The position numbers were made by a program, and so were the translations under genes. 64,000 nt of DNA, from IMG/VR virus record IMGVR_UViG_3300000243_000001, one strand, 5' to 3'. Every line of letters starts with the position of its first letter. The stretch's first letter is position 1. This stretch comes from an uncultured virus (IMG/VR IMGVR_UViG_3300000243_000001) (Duplodnaviria > Heunggongvirae > Uroviricota > Caudoviricetes). Under the pieces are notes generated by a model, which was not told where the DNA came from, did not search any database, and saw nothing but the letters and a program-made list of their open reading frames with translations. Below, piece by piece: positions 11,096 to 44,868 of this stretch.

Positions 11096-11120
11096 TTCAT
11101 CCTCATTAGTAAAAAGAATG

Positions 11121-11165
11121 AATAAAAGGTGTTAAAGAAAAAATAAAGCATTAACACCTTTTATT
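11121..11165. repeat. perfect 15-bp inverted repeat in the leader of the RNAP operon
   Basis: AATAAAAGGTGTTAA (11121-11135), 15-nt spacer, TTAACACCTTTTATT (11151-11165). Confidence 0.85.
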
Positions 11166-11186
11166 TTTTGAGAGGGGTCAATAGAA

Positions 11187-11200
11187 TTTATATCTATATA
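11187..11200 (-). promoter_or_regulatory. putative phage promoter motif TATATAGATATAAA
   Basis: Same 14-mer occurs at 15226-15239 (+); oriented toward the RNAP operon. Confidence 0.45.
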
Positions 11201-11266
11201 TAGAAGATCAAAATAAAATGGAGTAAAAGATCTCAATCTAAATCATCTTTTTTTTATCATTTATTA

Positions 11267-11279
11267 CATACATATATAA
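11267..11279 (+). promoter_or_regulatory. putative phage promoter motif CATACATATATAA
   Basis: Same 13-mer occurs at 16027-16039 (+); 47 nt upstream of the 11327 ATG. Confidence 0.45.
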
Positions 11280-11326
11280 TAAATACTAGGGGATTTTCTT
11301 TTAACCAATCTATTAAGGATATATTT

Positions 11327-14724: not shown

Positions 14725-15212
14725 GTAGAATGACTGATGAAAACTGGGAAAAACTCGAAACTGCTAAAAAAGACAGTAAAGAGCGGTACGATCTGAAAAT
14801 TAAACAATTATTTGAAGAAAAGAAGACGATTGAGAAGGCAGATCTTCAATATCGTTACTTCAGAAACGACAGAAGAAATACCAGAAATAACCGTGCTCAC
14901 AGAGGTGTGATCTGTATAGGTTATAAAATCATAAGTGAATCTGAACAAGGAATTAAAGTCGCATTTTCAGTGGCATTTTGTTCACCGAAAGACGCATTTT
15001 CACGATACCATGCTAAGAAAGTATTGGCGAGACGGTATACAGATGGTCAGTGTGTTTCGATTCACATAGATTATGGTAGTAATAAATACATTACAAACTT
15101 CATTCGTGACATTTGGAACGGTGGTAAAGTTCCAATCGAAAAGCTAGGTATCAAGAATATACTTCCTGGTGTACCTATAATGCTTAAACCATGGATGAAG
15201 ATTATCCGCTAA
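14721..15212 (+). CDS. basic phage hypothetical protein
   Basis: 163 aa, GAGGAG RBS; motif AFCSPKDAFSR...KKVLARR is of a type seen in small phage proteins. Confidence 0.75.
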   Translation: MSRMTDENWEKLETAKKDSKERYDLKIKQLFEEKKTIEKADLQYRYFRNDRRNTRNNRAHRGVICIGYKIISESEQGIKVAFSVAFCSPKDAFSRYHAKKVLARRYTDGQCVSIHIDYGSNKYITNFIRDIWNGGKVPIEKLGIKNILPGVPIMLKPWMKIIR

Positions 15213-15225
15213 TTATCTAAGTTTT

Positions 15226-15239
15226 TATATAGATATAAA
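15226..15239 (+). promoter_or_regulatory. putative phage promoter motif TATATAGATATAAA
   Basis: Identical to 11200-11187 (-); directly precedes the hairpin/minigene unit. Confidence 0.45.
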
Positions 15240-15242
15240 CAA

Positions 15243-15441
15243 TAATGGAAGATATACTTCTTCCATTAATATTCCATAGTTGGGGAGGTGTCGATGTTTA
15301 TAATTGACATGTGGTAATAACTCAATGATGGGGTAGCGTTGTATATTAAATTATATTAAATTCAACGTGCTGTGTGATGCTTTGCCTCATTGGATGTGGA
15401 TGGTGGCGATAAGAGACTTTATCGTTCACCATTCATTTTTT
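15243..15441 (+). ncRNA. candidate ~200-nt small RNA carrying a 7-codon minigene (MFIIDMW, 15294-15317)
   Basis: 10-bp 5' hairpin (15243-52/15259-68), strong SD GGGGAGGTG (15282-90), long imperfect hairpin 15323-15392, terminator 15396-15441. Confidence 0.45.
15396..15441 (+). terminator. intrinsic terminator
   Basis: GTGGATGGTG-GCGATAA / TTATCGT-T-CACCATTCAT stem followed by a T run. Confidence 0.7.
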
Positions 15442-15525
15442 ATTCGACAGAGAAATGACACGTTCTCACTTAGATTACTATGAATGAAAAAATACATCTT
15501 AGTCTCAGTAAAATTCAGTACGAAA

Positions 15526-15553
15526 ATAGGTCCGAAAATAGGTTCGGACCTAT
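15526..15553. repeat. 11-bp perfect inverted repeat with overlapping direct repeat
   Basis: ATAGGTCCGAA (15526-36) / TTCGGACCTAT (15543-53); CGAAAATAGGT occurs at 15521 and 15533. Confidence 0.75.
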
Positions 15554-15581
15554 ATCAAAACTAAATTTTTTTTCAAAACCG

Positions 15582-15609
15582 TTGACAGAGATATTAATTA
15601 ATATATTAT
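15582..15609 (+). promoter_or_regulatory. possible sigma70-type promoter
   Basis: TTGACA (15582-87), 16-nt spacer, TATTAT (15604-09); AT-rich background lowers specificity. Confidence 0.35.
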
Positions 15610-16026
15610 TGTAGTCTAAAGTAACGAGAGTAGTGTATACTTTTAGTAAATTCTTTGAGAAAAGTCTTTTAGTTTCTCTATTAAATAGTTCTCTCTGTTA
15701 TGTTTTCTAAAGTCTATTAAATTGAAGTCAAATGTAAAAAGTAACATGTGTAACATATTGAATAGTATATGAGAATAGAAAGAGTTAAGAGTGTTTCCAT
15801 GAATTTCATTGAAGTTAATGGTATTCATCTTCAGATTATCTTGAGCTCAGCTTAGAGTCACTGTAGTGATAGGGTTAAGTTGAGTATCGTATTCTGTTAA
15901 GTGGGGAATTTGCTTCCAAATAACAACGTTAAACCATTAAAAAATGATAGGTTAATTAAATCATTCTTTAATAAGAGCCACAGCCACATCCTTTTTACAA
16001 CTTCTTTTTTAAAAGACATTCAGTTT

Positions 16027-16039
16027 CATACATATATAA
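16027..16039 (+). promoter_or_regulatory. putative phage promoter motif CATACATATATAA
   Basis: Identical to 11267-11279; ends 5 nt before the first paired segment of the candidate ncRNA. Confidence 0.45.
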
Positions 16040-16043
16040 ATCT

Positions 16044-16886
16044 AATGATGGTGGATTAATAAAAGTTATATGAACATACTTTGAACCTATTATTATGAAC
16101 GAATTGTTACGGTAATTCAAGTAAGAAAGTCTGAAACATTGATCGATTATATTGAACTTATATATATTATAATGACCGCCGTGCTACGCACACAGAGACT
16201 TATGGTATATTGAGGGTTAACTGATTAATACTCGGTCGGAGATGGTACTTACCGTGCTTCGTAAAGATATCAAAGGGTTATCCCGAATGAAAAGTTATCT
16301 TCCGAGTGAGACATTAGTATGTTACTGTATTTTCACATGATGATTATTAATGAAGCCGTATTATTCTAGGAATGGTATTATTTGTAAAACTATTTGTGTT
16401 TAAGTTACACGATTCAATATGAATGAAACAGCAACAGCTGGATTAAGATGCCGTCGATGACGGGTTATTGAAGAGTTAATGGTATATACATTTAGTTTCT
16501 GATGTACATTAATAGGTGCCAGATATGTGCAATAATAATATTCCAATTGTGATATAATACGTCTGTTGAGTAAGTGATGACGTTAATGAGACTGTTTGGC
16601 GTTCTTGTCAATCAGGATAAGTTTTCATTGAGACACTTTATCCTCTCGCACTTACATTATTCTAAGTTATTATATATGCGCGGAACTAAGTCGGGTCTAT
16701 TGGGTACTATACATATGCACTCCATCTATTACGTATTGAAGTTGATACAATATTATTCGTGGTCTAGGATGATTGGTGGTAAAAATTGATCTAAAGATTT
16801 GAGATTCCGGTTTCGATCTTTAGACTTTTTTACCGCCACATTGGTACTTTTATTTTTTTTGTTCTAAATCTAGGACAGCCATCATT
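16044..16886 (+). ncRNA. candidate large structured non-coding RNA (~840 nt), family unassigned
   Basis: No credible ORF; terminal helices 16044-52/16878-86 and 16058-66/16846-54; more than a dozen internal helices with G-U pairs favouring the + strand; putative pseudoknots. Confidence 0.6.
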
Positions 16887-16978
16887 TAACAAAAGTCAAA
16901 AATAAATAGATATGAATAATTATAAAACAATGTTGGTGGAGAGTATTTTTTAACGATTAAGACATAGGAGGGTTATCA

Positions 16979-17527
16979 TTGAAACAGTTAGTATCCGATA
17001 TCAAGTTTTTTTTAAATGACAATCTAGATACACACAGCGCACCAGAAACGAGTTTGATTCATCGTAGCATAATTAATAACCCTGCTGCACATAATTCTGG
17101 TAACATTGGGTTGCATTCGGACAACTTCAAAAGCTATGATCTAGGCGCATTTAATTATGTATTTATTGTCGCAGATAAACGATTTTCGATTGTAATTGAT
17201 GAGAAGTTAGCATTATATACATCTCAATTCAGTTACATTAATCCACGAGCTTTGTTAACTGCGAAGATATTTCCATACACACCTGGTGAAACTAAGGTTA
17301 AGTTTCTATATGGTGTATTTCAAACTGGAGATGTTGAAGATGGGTCGACTTCACCTGAAGATTGTGGTAAGGATATGGATTTCGATGCTCAAATCGATTC
17401 ATTGATCTACGATACAAACCCTTGTGGAAATCCTTTAACTTCATCTATTGTTGAAGAGTTATCTGGATTGTGTGAATTAGATTTCACATGGGATGAAGCT
17501 CTACAGAAACTAATTTTAGAAGAATAA
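16979..17527 (+). CDS. hypothetical protein, probably virion-associated (paralogue of next gene)
   Basis: TTG start after AGGAGG; shares NY.FI.A...F.IVI...SYIN...LYG pattern with 17538-17894. Confidence 0.75.
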   Translation: MKQLVSDIKFFLNDNLDTHSAPETSLIHRSIINNPAAHNSGNIGLHSDNFKSYDLGAFNYVFIVADKRFSIVIDEKLALYTSQFSYINPRALLTAKIFPYTPGETKVKFLYGVFQTGDVEDGSTSPEDCGKDMDFDAQIDSLIYDTNPCGNPLTSSIVEELSGLCELDFTWDEALQKLILEE

Positions 17528-18836: not shown

Positions 18837-19565
18837 ATGAAGTCCTATGGTTTACAGATGGATGGTGAATTTGTAATTGAAGCTATTGATACAAAACCAC
18901 CATGGACTGAAGCATATATTGGTAGATTCATTTATACAGAAGATACTGATTCTTATTGGTTGGGTGGATTAACTAAATGGTTACAGCTTGGGTATGGTAA
19001 AGATTCAGTCGATGAATTCAGCGTTAACTTCGGGTTCGGTTATCGACAAATTAATTCTAGATCCGTACCATTTGACCATCCGCAAATCTCTGGAGATAAT
19101 ATCTTTGAAGGGATGGTTTCGTTAGCTGCAGGTCGAGGGCTTTATGATTCATGTATTTCATCTAGACACTTTAAAACTGGACAGATTAAATCTGCTCATA
19201 TTAATTGGGGTGTAACTGATGGTTTCGTTAACGCGGACATTATACCAATCGAAAGTCTTTTTGTAGATTCAACTACACCTGAAGTTATCACAGTTCAACA
19301 AGCAATCAACCAATTGGAATTAAGTTCTATCAAGATTGCTAGGGTTACAGTTCAATCAACAGCATGGACCTTCGCTCCAGCTGAAAATTTATATCGTACA
19401 ACTGTAGTTGCATTGCCAATTACATCATTTCCATTATCTGTTCAATGTTATAAAGATACTGGTGAGTTAGTAACACCAGAAAGAGTTGAATTAGATAGTG
19501 GTACAAATCGTGTTCATATTTGGCATGAAGTTGCACTTGTACTAAACGTCGTTATGGTAGGATAA
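18837..19565 (+). CDS. putative virion fibre-associated protein (MKSYG family)
   Basis: N-terminal MKSYGLQMDG...W...GRFIY...YWLG module; C-terminal type-A-like bead (VQCYKD). Confidence 0.7.
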   Translation: MKSYGLQMDGEFVIEAIDTKPPWTEAYIGRFIYTEDTDSYWLGGLTKWLQLGYGKDSVDEFSVNFGFGYRQINSRSVPFDHPQISGDNIFEGMVSLAAGRGLYDSCISSRHFKTGQIKSAHINWGVTDGFVNADIIPIESLFVDSTTPEVITVQQAINQLELSSIKIARVTVQSTAWTFAPAENLYRTTVVALPITSFPLSVQCYKDTGELVTPERVELDSGTNRVHIWHEVALVLNVVMVG

Positions 19566-19566
19566 T

Positions 19567-21054
19567 ATGAAAAGTTTCGGTATAAGCATGGATGGTCCAC
19601 TCGTCATTGAACGGGTGGATATTTTACCGACTTGGACTTCTTCGCTCGTTGGGCGAATGGTGTATGAACGGGCTTCATCTACGTATTGGATAGCTGGAGA
19701 TACAGCAGATGATGGTATTGCTGGATGGATTCAATTTGGATTAAACAGTCGTGGTATAATTTCAGATTATATGCGGTGGGATGTTGATCTTGTTGATTCA
19801 ACGGCAATATCGTCTGAAGATATGCCTACTTATTACCTCGATTCAACGAGCAATGTTCAAGTTGCATTAAACTCAATCACCGACAATATCTCTGGTATAA
19901 TTGAAGGATCCTTATTAGGTCCAAAATCAGTTACCTATGATAACGTCGGATTCACATCAGCTGATGTTCCATTTGCGAATAGTCAAGGTAAATTTGATGT
20001 TGCATATGAGACAGTTGAACAAGTTTTAAATTTCTTACGTTATTCAACTGCCGATCAGATTTTGTTCCTAGAACCACATGATTTCGGATTAGGGATTACA
20101 TCTAATGCAGATAACGTACAACAAGCTTTACTTGATATAGATAAATATTTTGAGAATTTAAATGCCGATAAAGTAAAGGCATTGATACCATCAACTAGTG
20201 TCTGGTCATCTGTACAAAGTATCTTAGATATGTTGAATAGTAATATTGCAAATATATCTTATGTTGGCCTAGTTGGAACTCCTGAAAATTATGGATTAGA
20301 TAAACAATTTCTTCGAACCAATGGGGAAGATTCTGTTTATTATTCAGATGTATATGCTAGTGATATTATATGCCAATATCCCGGGACAGTTGCAAATACG
20401 GTTCAAGGTGCATTAGCTATAATTGATAGTCGCATTAATGAACTTAGTGGTGGAAACTTGCGACTTGACTCTAGTGATATTAGCTACGACGATAGTCCTT
20501 CTATTGGGTTAAATAACGTTGATGATGTTCTTGATTATTTGATTCGAGAATGCTTTACTGCAGCGAATCTACCAGAAGCATCACAAGTATCATCCGTTAG
20601 TATTGGAAATACAAATAATGTTCAAGCGTCTCTTGAGTTTATACAAATTGAGGTTGAGGCATTACAAGCAAGTGGTGGTACTGAGCTTTGTGAAGCATCT
20701 ATATCTCCATTATCATTATCTGCAAATTCACTAGTCACTTTAGCAATCCCTAGACAAGATTATCTATTGTTGACTCACACTTATGGTGGAACAACTGAAA
20801 CTAATGTATTCATTTCTGCGAGAATTGTTGTTCATTCATCTTCATTAGATCAAGATTTGGTTGCGAGTATTGAAGGTAACGATTCAGTAACTATTGCTAA
20901 AGAATTACTTTATCCTGGTTATACTATTACATTGATGGCTAAGGCAACATTATCTCCGAATGAAACAATCAATCTAACTGTATCTAGCACCAGTGACGGG
21001 TGTGATAGTATCGTAATTAAAGATTATCGAATGTTGATACAACCATCGTTATAG
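19567..21054 (+). CDS. putative virion fibre protein (MKSYG family)
   Basis: Shared N-terminal module; repeated (S/D)NVQ.AL helical units; C-terminal beta domain. Confidence 0.7.
   Translation: MKSFGISMDGPLVIERVDILPTWTSSLVGRMVYERASSTYWIAGDTADDGIAGWIQFGLNSRGIISDYMRWDVDLVDSTAISSEDMPTYYLDSTSNVQVALNSITDNISGIIEGSLLGPKSVTYDNVGFTSADVPFANSQGKFDVAYETVEQVLNFLRYSTADQILFLEPHDFGLGITSNADNVQQALLDIDKYFENLNADKVKALIPSTSVWSSVQSILDMLNSNIANISYVGLVGTPENYGLDKQFLRTNGEDSVYYSDVYASDIICQYPGTVANTVQGALAIIDSRINELSGGNLRLDSSDISYDDSPSIGLNNVDDVLDYLIRECFTAANLPEASQVSSVSIGNTNNVQASLEFIQIEVEALQASGGTELCEASISPLSLSANSLVTLAIPRQDYLLLTHTYGGTTETNVFISARIVVHSSSLDQDLVASIEGNDSVTIAKELLYPGYTITLMAKATLSPNETINLTVSSTSDGCDSIVIKDYRMLIQPSL

Positions 21055-28578: not shown

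Positions 28579-44868
<16,290 letters not shown>

What the first reader, a model, noticed from the sequence alone, without database searches (positions are those of the whole stretch)
16044..16886. Candidate ~840-nt ornate non-coding RNA between the accessory and virion gene blocks
Seen in sequence: an ORF-free stretch starting 5 nt after a repeated promoter-like motif, with ends that pair (AATGATGGT 16044-52 / GCCATCATT 16878-86; AATAAAAGT 16058-66 / ACTTTTATT 16846-54). Internal helices: 16090-98/16167-75; 16101-18 hairpin with UACG loop; 16242-51/16701-10; 16256-62/16350-56; 16264-69/16296-301; 16432-37/16563-68; 16451-63; 16570-76/16649-55; 16579-86/16596-603; 16614-20/16638-44; long hairpin 16775-16837. 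G-U pairs consistently favour the + strand. Crossing pairings: GACTTA 16197-202 / TAAGTC 16687-92, and a possible loop-loop kiss GTTAACT 16216-22 / AGTTGAT 16740-46. Established: phages carry large structured RNAs in this size range (ROOL, GOLLD). Inference: a member of such a family or a new class; I cannot assign it by eye.
Basis: partly seen in the sequence, partly recalled or inferred. Interest (0 to 1): 0.82.

Follow-up and report, generated by a model that had tools for sequence, protein, structure and literature searches.

The report
New large structured RNA in jumbo phage
A tightly packed jumbo-phage genome keeps an ~0.8-kb stretch with no gene in it that is conserved in three related phages and mutates so as to preserve base-pairing, which marks it as a large folded RNA of a family not yet described.

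Summary
Window 15213-16978 is one of only two gaps longer than 63 nt in a densely coding, very divergent jumbo-phage window. Its 3' half, about 16042-16862 on the + strand, is a conserved structured RNA.

- **Relatives:** three metagenomic contigs keep the same ORF-free gap between the same genes. The element aligns at 58-63% nucleotide identity; the 5' half of the gap is barely alignable.
- **Covariation:** the RNAalifold consensus has 217 pairs, 68 with compensatory changes. Re-folded column shuffles give 33±6, coding flanks 8-23, and the gap's 5' half no excess over its shuffles.
- **Long-range closure:** helices 300-400 nt apart covary. One (16360-78/16750-73) has 7 compensatory columns and pairs in all four sequences.
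- **Strand:** G-U cells outnumber A-C cells 109 to 8, favouring the + strand.
- **Ends:** a promoter-like box precedes the element; a conserved hairpin and U-tract end it.
- **Known families:** Rfam 15 gives no match in the window or the relatives, and no tRNA lies nearby, so it is not GOLLD or ROOL.
about a third are supported.
- **Weak points:** single-sequence folding z-scores are modest (-1.5 to -3.5), there are only four sequences, no RNA data exist and the function is unknown.

Verdict: a candidate new family of large phage ncRNA.

The parts
15213..16978 (.). ORF-free gap between the 163-aa gene and the 182-aa gene. The same gap lies between the same genes in L002 (6178-8148) and L006 (2352-4433).
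16018..16041 (+). Conserved promoter-like box just upstream of the RNA. It holds the 13-mer CATACATATATAA (16027-16039), also found at 11267-11279 upstream of the 562-aa gene, and a TATAAA/TATAAT-like hexamer.
   Evidence: Conserved in 3 of 3 sequences that reach it. Exact repeat. The transcription start is inferred, not measured.
16042..16862 (+). The candidate ncRNA, about 0.8 kb. Both ends are uncertain: the 5' end may lie around 16042-16048, the 3' end in the U-tract.
16042..16047 (+). P1 5' strand, pairing with 16839-16844 (tentative closing helix). Pairs formed: 6/6, 6/6 and 5/6; no covariation.
16048..16359 (+). 5' domain (about 310 nt). It is closed by 16048-52/16355-59 (2 compensatory columns), 16055-70/16336-51 and 16082-92/16315-25. 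Inside lie hairpin 16101-18, helix 16138-49/16218-29, and a well-supported sub-domain made of 16230-35/16302-07, 16237-46/16251-61 and 16264-69/16296-301.
   Evidence: At 16233/16304 three different Watson-Crick pairs occur (C-G, A-U, G-C).
16360..16773 (+). 3' domain (about 415 nt). It is closed by the long-range helix 16360-69/16764-73 plus 16371-78/16750-57 (7 compensatory columns; every cell with letters is a standard pair in all 4 sequences). Inside lie 16451-55/16459-63, 16464-71/16476-83, 16511-18/16723-30, 16570-76/16649-55 and 16620-25/16630-35. The interior fold is not settled.
16774..16838 (+). Terminal hairpin P6 (16774-85/16827-38 invariant; 16790-99/16815-24 with one-sided and compensatory changes).
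16846..16862 (+). U-rich tract after P6 and the 3' strand of P1, conserved in all 4 sequences. Probable transcript end.
   Evidence: The simple terminator scan did not call it, because 6-9 nt separate the hairpin from the U-run.
16882..16916 (+). Box of 35 nt that is nearly invariant (one variable position, 16890) in all four sequences. It lies between the RNA and the 182-aa gene and includes ATAGATATG. Probably that gene block's own promoter; not part of the RNA.

Best explanation
Window about 16042-16862 (+ strand) encodes a discrete structured non-coding RNA of about 0.8 kb. It belongs to a family not in Rfam and is conserved in a lineage of jumbo phages that carry their own multisubunit RNA polymerase.

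**Shown**
- The element is ORF-free and syntenic in three relatives.
- It keeps its base pairs through compensatory substitutions. These include helices that close two domains of about 310 and 415 nt over distances of 300-400 nt.
- The + strand is the folding strand.

**Inferred from sequence**
- The RNA is made from its own promoter-like box (16018-16041).
- It ends at a conserved hairpin followed by a U-tract.
- The two domains, the hairpin and a short 5'/3' helix meet at a four-way junction with no unpaired linker nucleotides.

**Inferred by analogy (about 0.4 given that the RNA is real)**
- It acts in trans during infection as a folded scaffold or decoy RNA, as is suspected for GOLLD and ROOL. 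It may self-associate or bind a host or phage macromolecule.
- It is less likely to be a cis-regulator, because the next gene has its own nearly invariant promoter-like box and a Shine-Dalgarno sequence.
For: **Context**
- The window is a phage with split RNA polymerase beta/beta' genes, an NAD ligase and virion-like genes.
- Coding density is very high.

**Homologues**
- The 495-aa neighbour has 7 relatives at 53-67% identity.
- Of the 6 loci fetched, 3 reach the element.
- blastn gives 64-66% identity over 781-1057 nt, with nhmmer E-values of 7e-38, 2e-28 and 3e-18.
- The gaps are ORF-free in the relatives.
- Six-frame peptides give only short hits in several frames on both strands.

**Structure**
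- RNAalifold gives -108.5 kcal/mol with a covariation term of -11.5. There are 217 pairs, 68 of them compensatory.
- 76 column shuffles that were re-folded give -41.0 +/- 5.6 kcal/mol and 33.1 +/- 5.9 compensatory pairs (largest 47).
- Four coding-flank alignments from the same genomes give 8-23 compensatory pairs, SCI 0.15-0.46 against 0.60 here, and covariation terms that are unfavourable or near zero.
- The 5' half of the same gap gives 18 against 14.5 +/- 4.1 and 12 against 16.2 +/- 5.3.
- The count of structure pairs: 90.8% of cells paired against 81.2% shuffled; 68 against 29 +/- 3.9 (0 of 500 shuffles reach it); slid partners give 6-12.
- The held-out sequence L001 pairs at 121 of 137 positions, against 42-49% when the partners are slid.
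- Strict scan for perfect helices: 20 with at least 2 compensatory columns, against 2-9 in 20 shuffles.

**Strand**
- The - strand consensus is weaker: -61 kcal/mol and SCI 0.46.
- G-U cells number 109 against 8 A-C cells, out of 778.

**Independent folds.** The MFE of L006 and the centroid of L002 recover the same two-domain-plus-hairpin layout.
Against: - There are only 4 sequences, one of them truncated. L001 is 77% identical to L006, so no formal covariation statistics such as R-scape are possible.
- Of the 34 pairs where L001 differs from L006, only 21 stay canonical.
- The shuffle background is not zero: 2-9 false 'covarying' helices per alignment.
- The interior of the 3' domain changes with the alignment used.
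- Single-sequence folding z-scores are modest (-1.5 to -3.5). For 16042-16862, 2 of 20 shuffles fold as well, and the - strand scores -2.29.
- P1 and the exact ends rest on invariant sequence only. If transcription starts about 7 nt after the TATAAA hexamer, P1 would be shortened or absent.
- The hairpin is separated from the U-run by 6-9 nt, and the terminator scan did not call it.
- There is no expression evidence of any kind, and nothing indicates the function.
Confidence: 0.75

Rival explanations
1. The element is a cis-acting leader or folding-dependent terminator for the virion gene block. Completing the fold (P1/P6 next to the U-tract) stops transcription. Misfolding, or a bound factor, lets the polymerase read into the 182-aa gene and the genes beyond it.
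For: - It lies directly upstream of the virion-like block and on the same strand.
- The U-tract follows the junction-closing strands directly.
- One segment (16294-16301) covaries with two alternative partners, 16264-69 and 16576-81. That would suit a conformational switch.
Against: - A 35-nt box, invariant apart from one position, plus a Shine-Dalgarno sequence lie between the U-tract and the 182-aa gene, so that gene probably has its own promoter.
- Known processive antitermination and attenuator RNAs are, as I recall, several-fold smaller.
- One chance helix with 3 compensatory columns is expected per shuffled alignment. The 'two partners' observation may therefore be noise.
Confidence: 0.13
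2. The region is not one RNA but a cluster of separate smaller structured RNAs or regulatory hairpins (promoters, terminators, sRNAs) that happen to be adjacent.
For: - The best-supported pieces include local hairpins (16237-61, 16451-63, 16774-16838).
- The helix joining the two ends (P1) shows no covariation.
- The 5' half of the gap does hold small separate elements.
Against: - Long-range helices with compensatory changes close 310-nt and 415-nt domains.
- The two domains abut without a linker.
- No promoter-like or terminator-like box separates them.
Confidence: 0.06
3. The element acts at the DNA level (replication origin, packaging site or recombination site), and its conservation and hairpins act in DNA rather than RNA. 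Alternatively it is decaying coding sequence.
For: - It is AT-rich, non-coding and conserved.
- Watson-Crick compensatory changes are symmetric between the strands: the - strand consensus also shows 60 such pairs.
Against: - G-U against A-C asymmetry of 109 to 8. The - strand consensus is much weaker.
- No iteron-like direct repeats.
- Cumulative GC skew shows no turn here.
- No conserved reading frame.
- A decaying gene would not keep pairings across 400 nt.
Confidence: 0.04

Closest known systems
[quoted passage not shown]
   Same: Both are phage-encoded, about 800 nt, multi-domain and extensively paired, with no known function. GOLLD was first seen partly in aquatic metagenomes (passages of PMC12286853 read).
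   Different: - No match to any Rfam family, GOLLD's model included, in the window or the relatives.
- No tRNA genes in 64 kb or in the 6 loci, whereas GOLLD is 'often near tRNA islands'.
- No pattern of a conserved 3' region and a variable 5' region: three-way identity is 44% in the 5' domain and 36% in the 3' domain.
- Oligomeric state is unknown.
ROOL RNA (Rumen-Originating, Ornate, Large)
   Same: Both are large structured RNAs of phages and prophages with unknown function. ROOL has no identified protein partner and is thought to act as an RNA-only complex.
   Different: - No Rfam match.
- No tRNA neighbourhood.
- The size I recall for ROOL is smaller (about 580 nt; not from a call).
- The candidate loop-loop contact here has no compensatory support.
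OLE, HEARO and raiA-motif RNAs; group I and II introns; RNase P RNA; tmRNA
   Same: All are large bacterial or phage structured RNAs.
   Different: - No family reaches even E<=10 at this locus.
- No flanking exons: the downstream gene has its own Shine-Dalgarno sequence and start codon.
- No tmRNA by ARAGORN.

Membership tests
GOLLD | Match to the Rfam covariance model of the family | tested here: not met
   cmscan of the whole window at gathering thresholds gave 0 matches. At the locus with E<=10 there were 9 chance-level hits to unrelated small families. The three relatives at E<=5 gave nothing in the element.
GOLLD | Encoded in phages or prophages | tested here: met
   The window carries phage RNA polymerase subunits, a ligase and tail-fibre/virion-like proteins.
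GOLLD | Often next to tRNA islands | tested here: not met
   ARAGORN found 0 tRNA genes in the 64-kb window and 0 in the 6 loci. The feature is frequent rather than obligatory.
GOLLD | Universally conserved 3' region and less conserved 5' region | tested here: not met
   Three-way invariant columns: 44% in the 5' domain, 36% in the 3' domain.
GOLLD / ROOL | Homo-oligomeric RNA-only nanocage | not testable with these tools
   This needs native gels, mass photometry or cryo-EM of an in vitro transcript.
ROOL | Match to the Rfam covariance model of the family | tested here: not met
Group I / group II intron | Intron core model match and flanking exons of one gene | tested here: not met
   No Rfam match. 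The flanking ORFs are separate genes in all relatives, and the downstream one has its own ribosome-binding site.
Structured ncRNA gene (generic) | Conserved secondary structure with compensatory changes above controls, on one strand, without a reading frame | tested here: met
Structured ncRNA gene (generic) | A discrete transcript with defined ends | not testable with these tools
   No RNA run was listed. The promoter-like box and the hairpin with U-tract are sequence inferences.

The most novel reading that the evidence does not exclude
This would be a third, unrelated lineage of giant self-organising phage RNAs. The roughly 0.8-kb two-domain RNA closes on a linker-free four-way junction. It would either assemble into an RNA-only higher-order particle, as GOLLD and ROOL do, or use completion of its global fold next to the U-tract as a folding checkpoint that times expression of the virion genes. 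Either way it would occur in jumbo phages that transcribe with their own RNA polymerase.
Probability: 0.15. Interest if true: 0.88.

Novelty: new variant of a known kind. Interest (0 to 1): 0.7.

Why it matters
Very few classes of bacterial or phage RNA longer than 500 nt with elaborate conserved structure are known, and GOLLD, ROOL and OLE turned out to form unprecedented RNA-only assemblies (PMC12286853, passages read).

A further, unrelated class would be a new test case for what such RNAs do during infection. It sits in a sparsely sampled jumbo-phage lineage that otherwise leaves almost no non-coding DNA. It would also be a ready target for structure determination.

The locus also offers conserved promoter-like boxes for a poorly known phage transcription system.

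Tried and rejected
**Alternative genetic codes.** TAG=Q, table 4 and TAA=Q give no credible ORF in the gap.
- Table 4 gives at most 97 aa, absent from the relatives.
- TAA=Q gives a 168-aa frame on the - strand that needs 12 recoded stops.

**Searches for more homologues**
- blastn of 15200-17000 against 50,697 phage records: no match.
- Protein-guided scans of viral contigs with five queries: no relatives.
- Protein-guided scan of genome contigs: no relatives.
- DNA-pattern scans of viral contigs and genome contigs: 0 matches.

**Other blanks**
- Whole-genome search: no genome is held for this window.
- Sequencing runs: no RNA holder was listed.
- Flanking proteins for RNA-related domains: nothing informative from Pfam at E<=1 or from the ESM Atlas for the 182-aa and 163-aa proteins.

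**Promoter and repeat checks**
- A first guess at a shared promoter pattern was no more frequent than chance: 4 matches against 5.9 expected.
- A tRNA-like reading of the hairpin at 15527-15553 was rejected: no tRNA by ARAGORN. My first alignment of it used wrong coordinates.
- Direct repeats inside the RNA: only short two-copy families.

**Literature.** Four full-text searches found no description of a comparable jumbo-phage RNA. Those listings were seen as titles and abstract starts only.

Full report
**What the window is**

The 64-kb window is a densely coding phage genome segment.
- It carries an NAD-dependent DNA ligase and split multisubunit RNA polymerase beta and beta' genes on the - strand.
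- On the + strand it carries an HD phosphohydrolase, tail-fibre/virion-like proteins and a 5429-aa ORF.
- The RNA polymerase beta' protein finds only distant relatives (under 36% identity, partial coverage) among 50,697 deposited phages.
- Between the main ORFs, gaps are 22-63 nt. The two exceptions are the divergent region 11096-11326 and the gap 15213-16978.
- ARAGORN finds no tRNA or tmRNA gene in the window.

**Is the stretch really non-coding?**

- No ORF of 80 aa or more lies between 15212 and 16979. The longest ORF inside the element is 71 aa.
- Recoding TAG, TGA or TAA opens no credible frame.
- In two relatives the same gap is ORF-free at 50 aa or more. The exception is four 53-57-aa ORFs in L006, upstream of the conserved part.
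- Six-frame peptides of 16000-16980 hit the relatives only as short segments (12-21 aa) in several frames on both strands. That is what nucleotide conservation without a reading frame looks like.

**Relatives**

- Close-relative scans of IMG/VR with four neighbouring proteins found nothing.
- The 495-aa protein (19567-21054) has 7 relatives at 53-67% identity in the large protein collection.
- An alignment of these (A1) retrieved 6 metagenomic loci.
- Three loci reach the gap. L002 and L006 cover it whole. L001 starts inside the element because its contig ends there.
- Gene order is the same: an upstream gene of 163/211/202 aa, the gap, then genes of 182, 118, about 310 and about 245 aa.

Conservation of window about 15992-17000:

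| Locus | blastn identity | Aligned length (nt) | nhmmer E-value |
|---|---|---|---|
| L002 | 64% | 1057 | 7e-38 |
| L006 | 66% | 1023 | 2e-28 |
| L001 | 64% | 781 | 3e-18 |

- The 5' half of the gap (15213-15990) is alignable only in patches.
- Pairwise identity inside the element is 58-63%. The neighbouring virion genes are at 65-74%, and the upstream gene at 55-61%.
- Further scans of viral and genome collections found no more copies.

**Conserved structure**

RNAalifold on the three full-length sequences (A3) gives -108.5 kcal/mol with a favourable covariation term of -11.5. It predicts 217 pairs, 68 of which keep pairing through changes on both sides. Because the structure is chosen on the same alignment, I ran controls that repeat the choice.

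| Control | Result | This element |
|---|---|---|
| 76 column shuffles (gap and conservation classes kept), re-folded | -41.0 ± 5.6 kcal/mol; 33.1 ± 5.9 compensatory pairs (largest 47); 19.3 ± 4.3 clean ones | -108.5 kcal/mol; 68; 46 clean |
| Four coding-gene alignments from the same three genomes, both strands | 8-23 compensatory pairs; SCI 0.15-0.46; covariation terms unfavourable or near zero | 68; SCI 0.60; favourable term |
| 5' half of the same gap, same pipeline | 18 against 14.5 ± 4.1, and 12 against 16.2 ± 5.3: no excess | - |
| count of structure pairs: 3'-letter shuffles | 81.2% cells paired; 29 ± 3.9 compensatory pairs (0 of 500 reach the observed) | 90.8%; 68 |
| count of structure pairs: partners slid 1-3 columns | 6-12 compensatory pairs | 68 |
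| Held-out L001 on the three-sequence structure | 42-49% canonical with slid partners | 121 of 137 pairs canonical (88%) |

L001 is 77% identical to L006. Of the 34 pairs where the two differ, 21 stay canonical, so this last test adds less than it seems.

A strict scan for helices of at least 5 bp that are perfect in every sequence finds 20 with at least 2 compensatory columns. Twenty shuffles give 2-9. So most of these helices are real, but not all.

**Which helices are solid**

- **16360-69/16764-73 plus 16371-78/16750-57.** The strands lie about 400 nt apart. Every cell with letters is a standard pair in all four sequences, and 7 columns are compensatory.
- **16048-52/16355-59.** About 300 nt apart, with 2 compensatory columns.
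- **16230-35/16302-07.** One position shows C-G, A-U and G-C in different phages.
- **16237-46/16251-61.**
- **16264-69/16296-301.**
- **16451-55/16459-63.**
- **16511-18/16723-30.**
- **The terminal hairpin 16774-16838.**

In the consensus, the strands of P1 (16042-47/16839-44), the closing helix of the 5' domain, the closing helix of the 3' domain and the terminal hairpin follow one another without any unpaired nucleotide. That is a four-way junction. The same two-domain-plus-hairpin layout appears independently in the single-sequence MFE of L006 and the centroid of L002.

Uncertain points:
- The interior of the 3' domain changes with the alignment and is not settled.
- P1 has no covariation.
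- Segment 16294-16301 pairs perfectly with two different partners, 16264-69 and 16576-81. Both show compensatory changes. This may be a switch, or one of the roughly one-to-two chance helices expected per alignment.

**Strand, start and end**

- The - strand consensus is much weaker: -61 kcal/mol, SCI 0.46 and covariation term 2.9.
- Of 778 paired cells, 109 are G-U or U-G and 8 are A-C or C-A. The count leans towards the strand that was folded, but the energy difference does not.
- A conserved box lies upstream (16018-16041). Its 13-mer occurs exactly twice in the window. The second copy lies 47 nt before the start codon of the 562-aa gene, the first + strand gene after the divergent region.
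- The box contains a TATAAA/TATAAT-like hexamer. Which polymerase uses it is unknown.
- After the terminal hairpin and the 3' strand of P1 comes a U-rich tract that is conserved in all four sequences. The simple terminator scan did not call it, because 6-9 nt separate the hairpin from the U-run.
- Further on lies a 35-nt box (16882-16916), invariant apart from one position. A Shine-Dalgarno sequence and the TTG start of the 182-aa gene follow it. That gene block therefore probably has its own promoter.

**Thermodynamics alone**

| Sequence folded | z-score (20 shuffles each) |
|---|---|
| Window 16044-16886, + strand | -2.41 |
| Window 16044-16886, - strand | -2.29 |
| Window 16042-16862, + strand | -1.49 (2 of 20 shuffles fold as well) |
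| L002, + strand | -1.92 |
| L006, + strand | -3.51 |

The case rests on comparative evidence.

I checked 15 proposed pairings.
- Five are supported by the relatives.
- Three are ambiguous.
- Seven are not conserved.
- The outer pairing 16044-52/16878-86 is largely conserved (9/9, 8/9 and 7/9 pairs). But it involves only conserved sequence, lies beyond the U-tract, and overlaps the nearly invariant downstream box.
- The proposed kiss 16216-22/16740-46 stays pairable through one-sided changes only. Its 5' strand is part of a helix (16138-49/16218-29) that has 4 compensatory columns.

**Known families**

- Rfam 15 gives no match at gathering thresholds in 64 kb.
- In 15100-17100 at E<=10, and in the three relatives at E<=5, it gives only scattered chance-level matches to small unrelated families.
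- From passages of PMC12286853: GOLLD and ROOL are large RNAs of phages and prophages, often near tRNA islands and of unknown function, and they form RNA-only nanocages. GOLLD has a conserved 3' region and a variable 5' region.
- Here there are no tRNA genes, and conservation is 44% in the 5' domain against 36% in the 3' domain.
- The element therefore resembles these RNAs in kind (phage-borne, about 0.8 kb, multi-domain), but it fails the membership tests that could be run.
- Four literature searches found no description of such an RNA in jumbo phages (listings only, apart from the passages named above).

**How it probably works**

- *Shown:* a conserved, strand-specific, long-range-paired, non-coding element.
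- *Inferred:* a discrete transcript running from the box at 16018-16041 to the U-tract.
- *By analogy only:* a trans-acting folded RNA made during infection, acting as a scaffold, a decoy or a self-assembling particle.

Arguments for trans over cis are the separate promoter-like box and ribosome-binding site of the next gene, and the closed two-domain architecture. The neighbouring proteins gave no hint of an RNA partner. No RNA run was listed, so expression is untested.

**Verdict**

This is a real and unusual feature: a candidate new family of large structured phage RNA. It currently rests on four sequences, and its function is unknown.

Noticed in passing
window 15281-15318 (L002 and L006 homologous positions in alignment A4): A strong Shine-Dalgarno sequence (GGGAGG) is followed by a 7-codon mini-ORF. 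It is conserved in three phages with synonymous and conservative changes (MFIIDMW, MFIIEMW, MFIIEMY). It sits between a promoter-like box at 15226 and a terminator-like hairpin at 15527-15553, so it may be a leader peptide or micro-protein.
   Followed up: partly
window 15226-15237 (+), 11189-11200 (-), 16902-16914 (+): A second promoter-like box (TATATAGATATA / AAATAGATATG) occurs in intergenic DNA at three places. The copy at 15226 is invariant in L002 and L006, and the copy at 16902 is invariant in all four sequences. WATAGATATR has 6 matches in the window against 2.5 expected, three of them intergenic.
   Followed up: partly
window 15527-15575; L006 homologous region: A 10-bp hairpin with a T-run downstream is conserved in position in the relatives. 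The L006 version contains a GGTTCGAACC palindrome reminiscent of a tRNA T-arm, but ARAGORN calls no tRNA in any sequence. It probably ends a short transcript from the 15226 box.
   Followed up: partly
window 15223-15991: The 5' half of the gap shows no conserved secondary structure above column shuffles. It is alignable to the relatives only in patches, for example the block CTGTTAAGTGGGGAATTTGCTTCC at 15896-15919. What keeps about 800 nt of poorly conserved non-coding DNA in so compact a genome is unexplained.
   Followed up: partly
window 16294-16301 with 16264-69 and with 16576-81: One variable 8-nt segment stays complementary to two different partners in all four phages, with compensatory changes in both pairings. 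This is either alternative conformations or one chance helix.
   Followed up: partly
window 18837-19565 and 19567-21054: The adjacent 242-aa and 495-aa proteins share an N-terminal module of about 58 aa (41% identity, E 4e-14). This looks like a shared attachment domain on different distal parts, as in tail-fibre sets.
   Followed up: partly
L006 4433-4895: The homologue of the 182-aa gene is split into two ORFs of 90 and 51 aa in L006. This is either a frameshift or an assembly error in that contig.
   Followed up: no
window 28579-44868: A single 5429-aa ORF lies in the virion-like block. It was not analysed.
   Followed up: no
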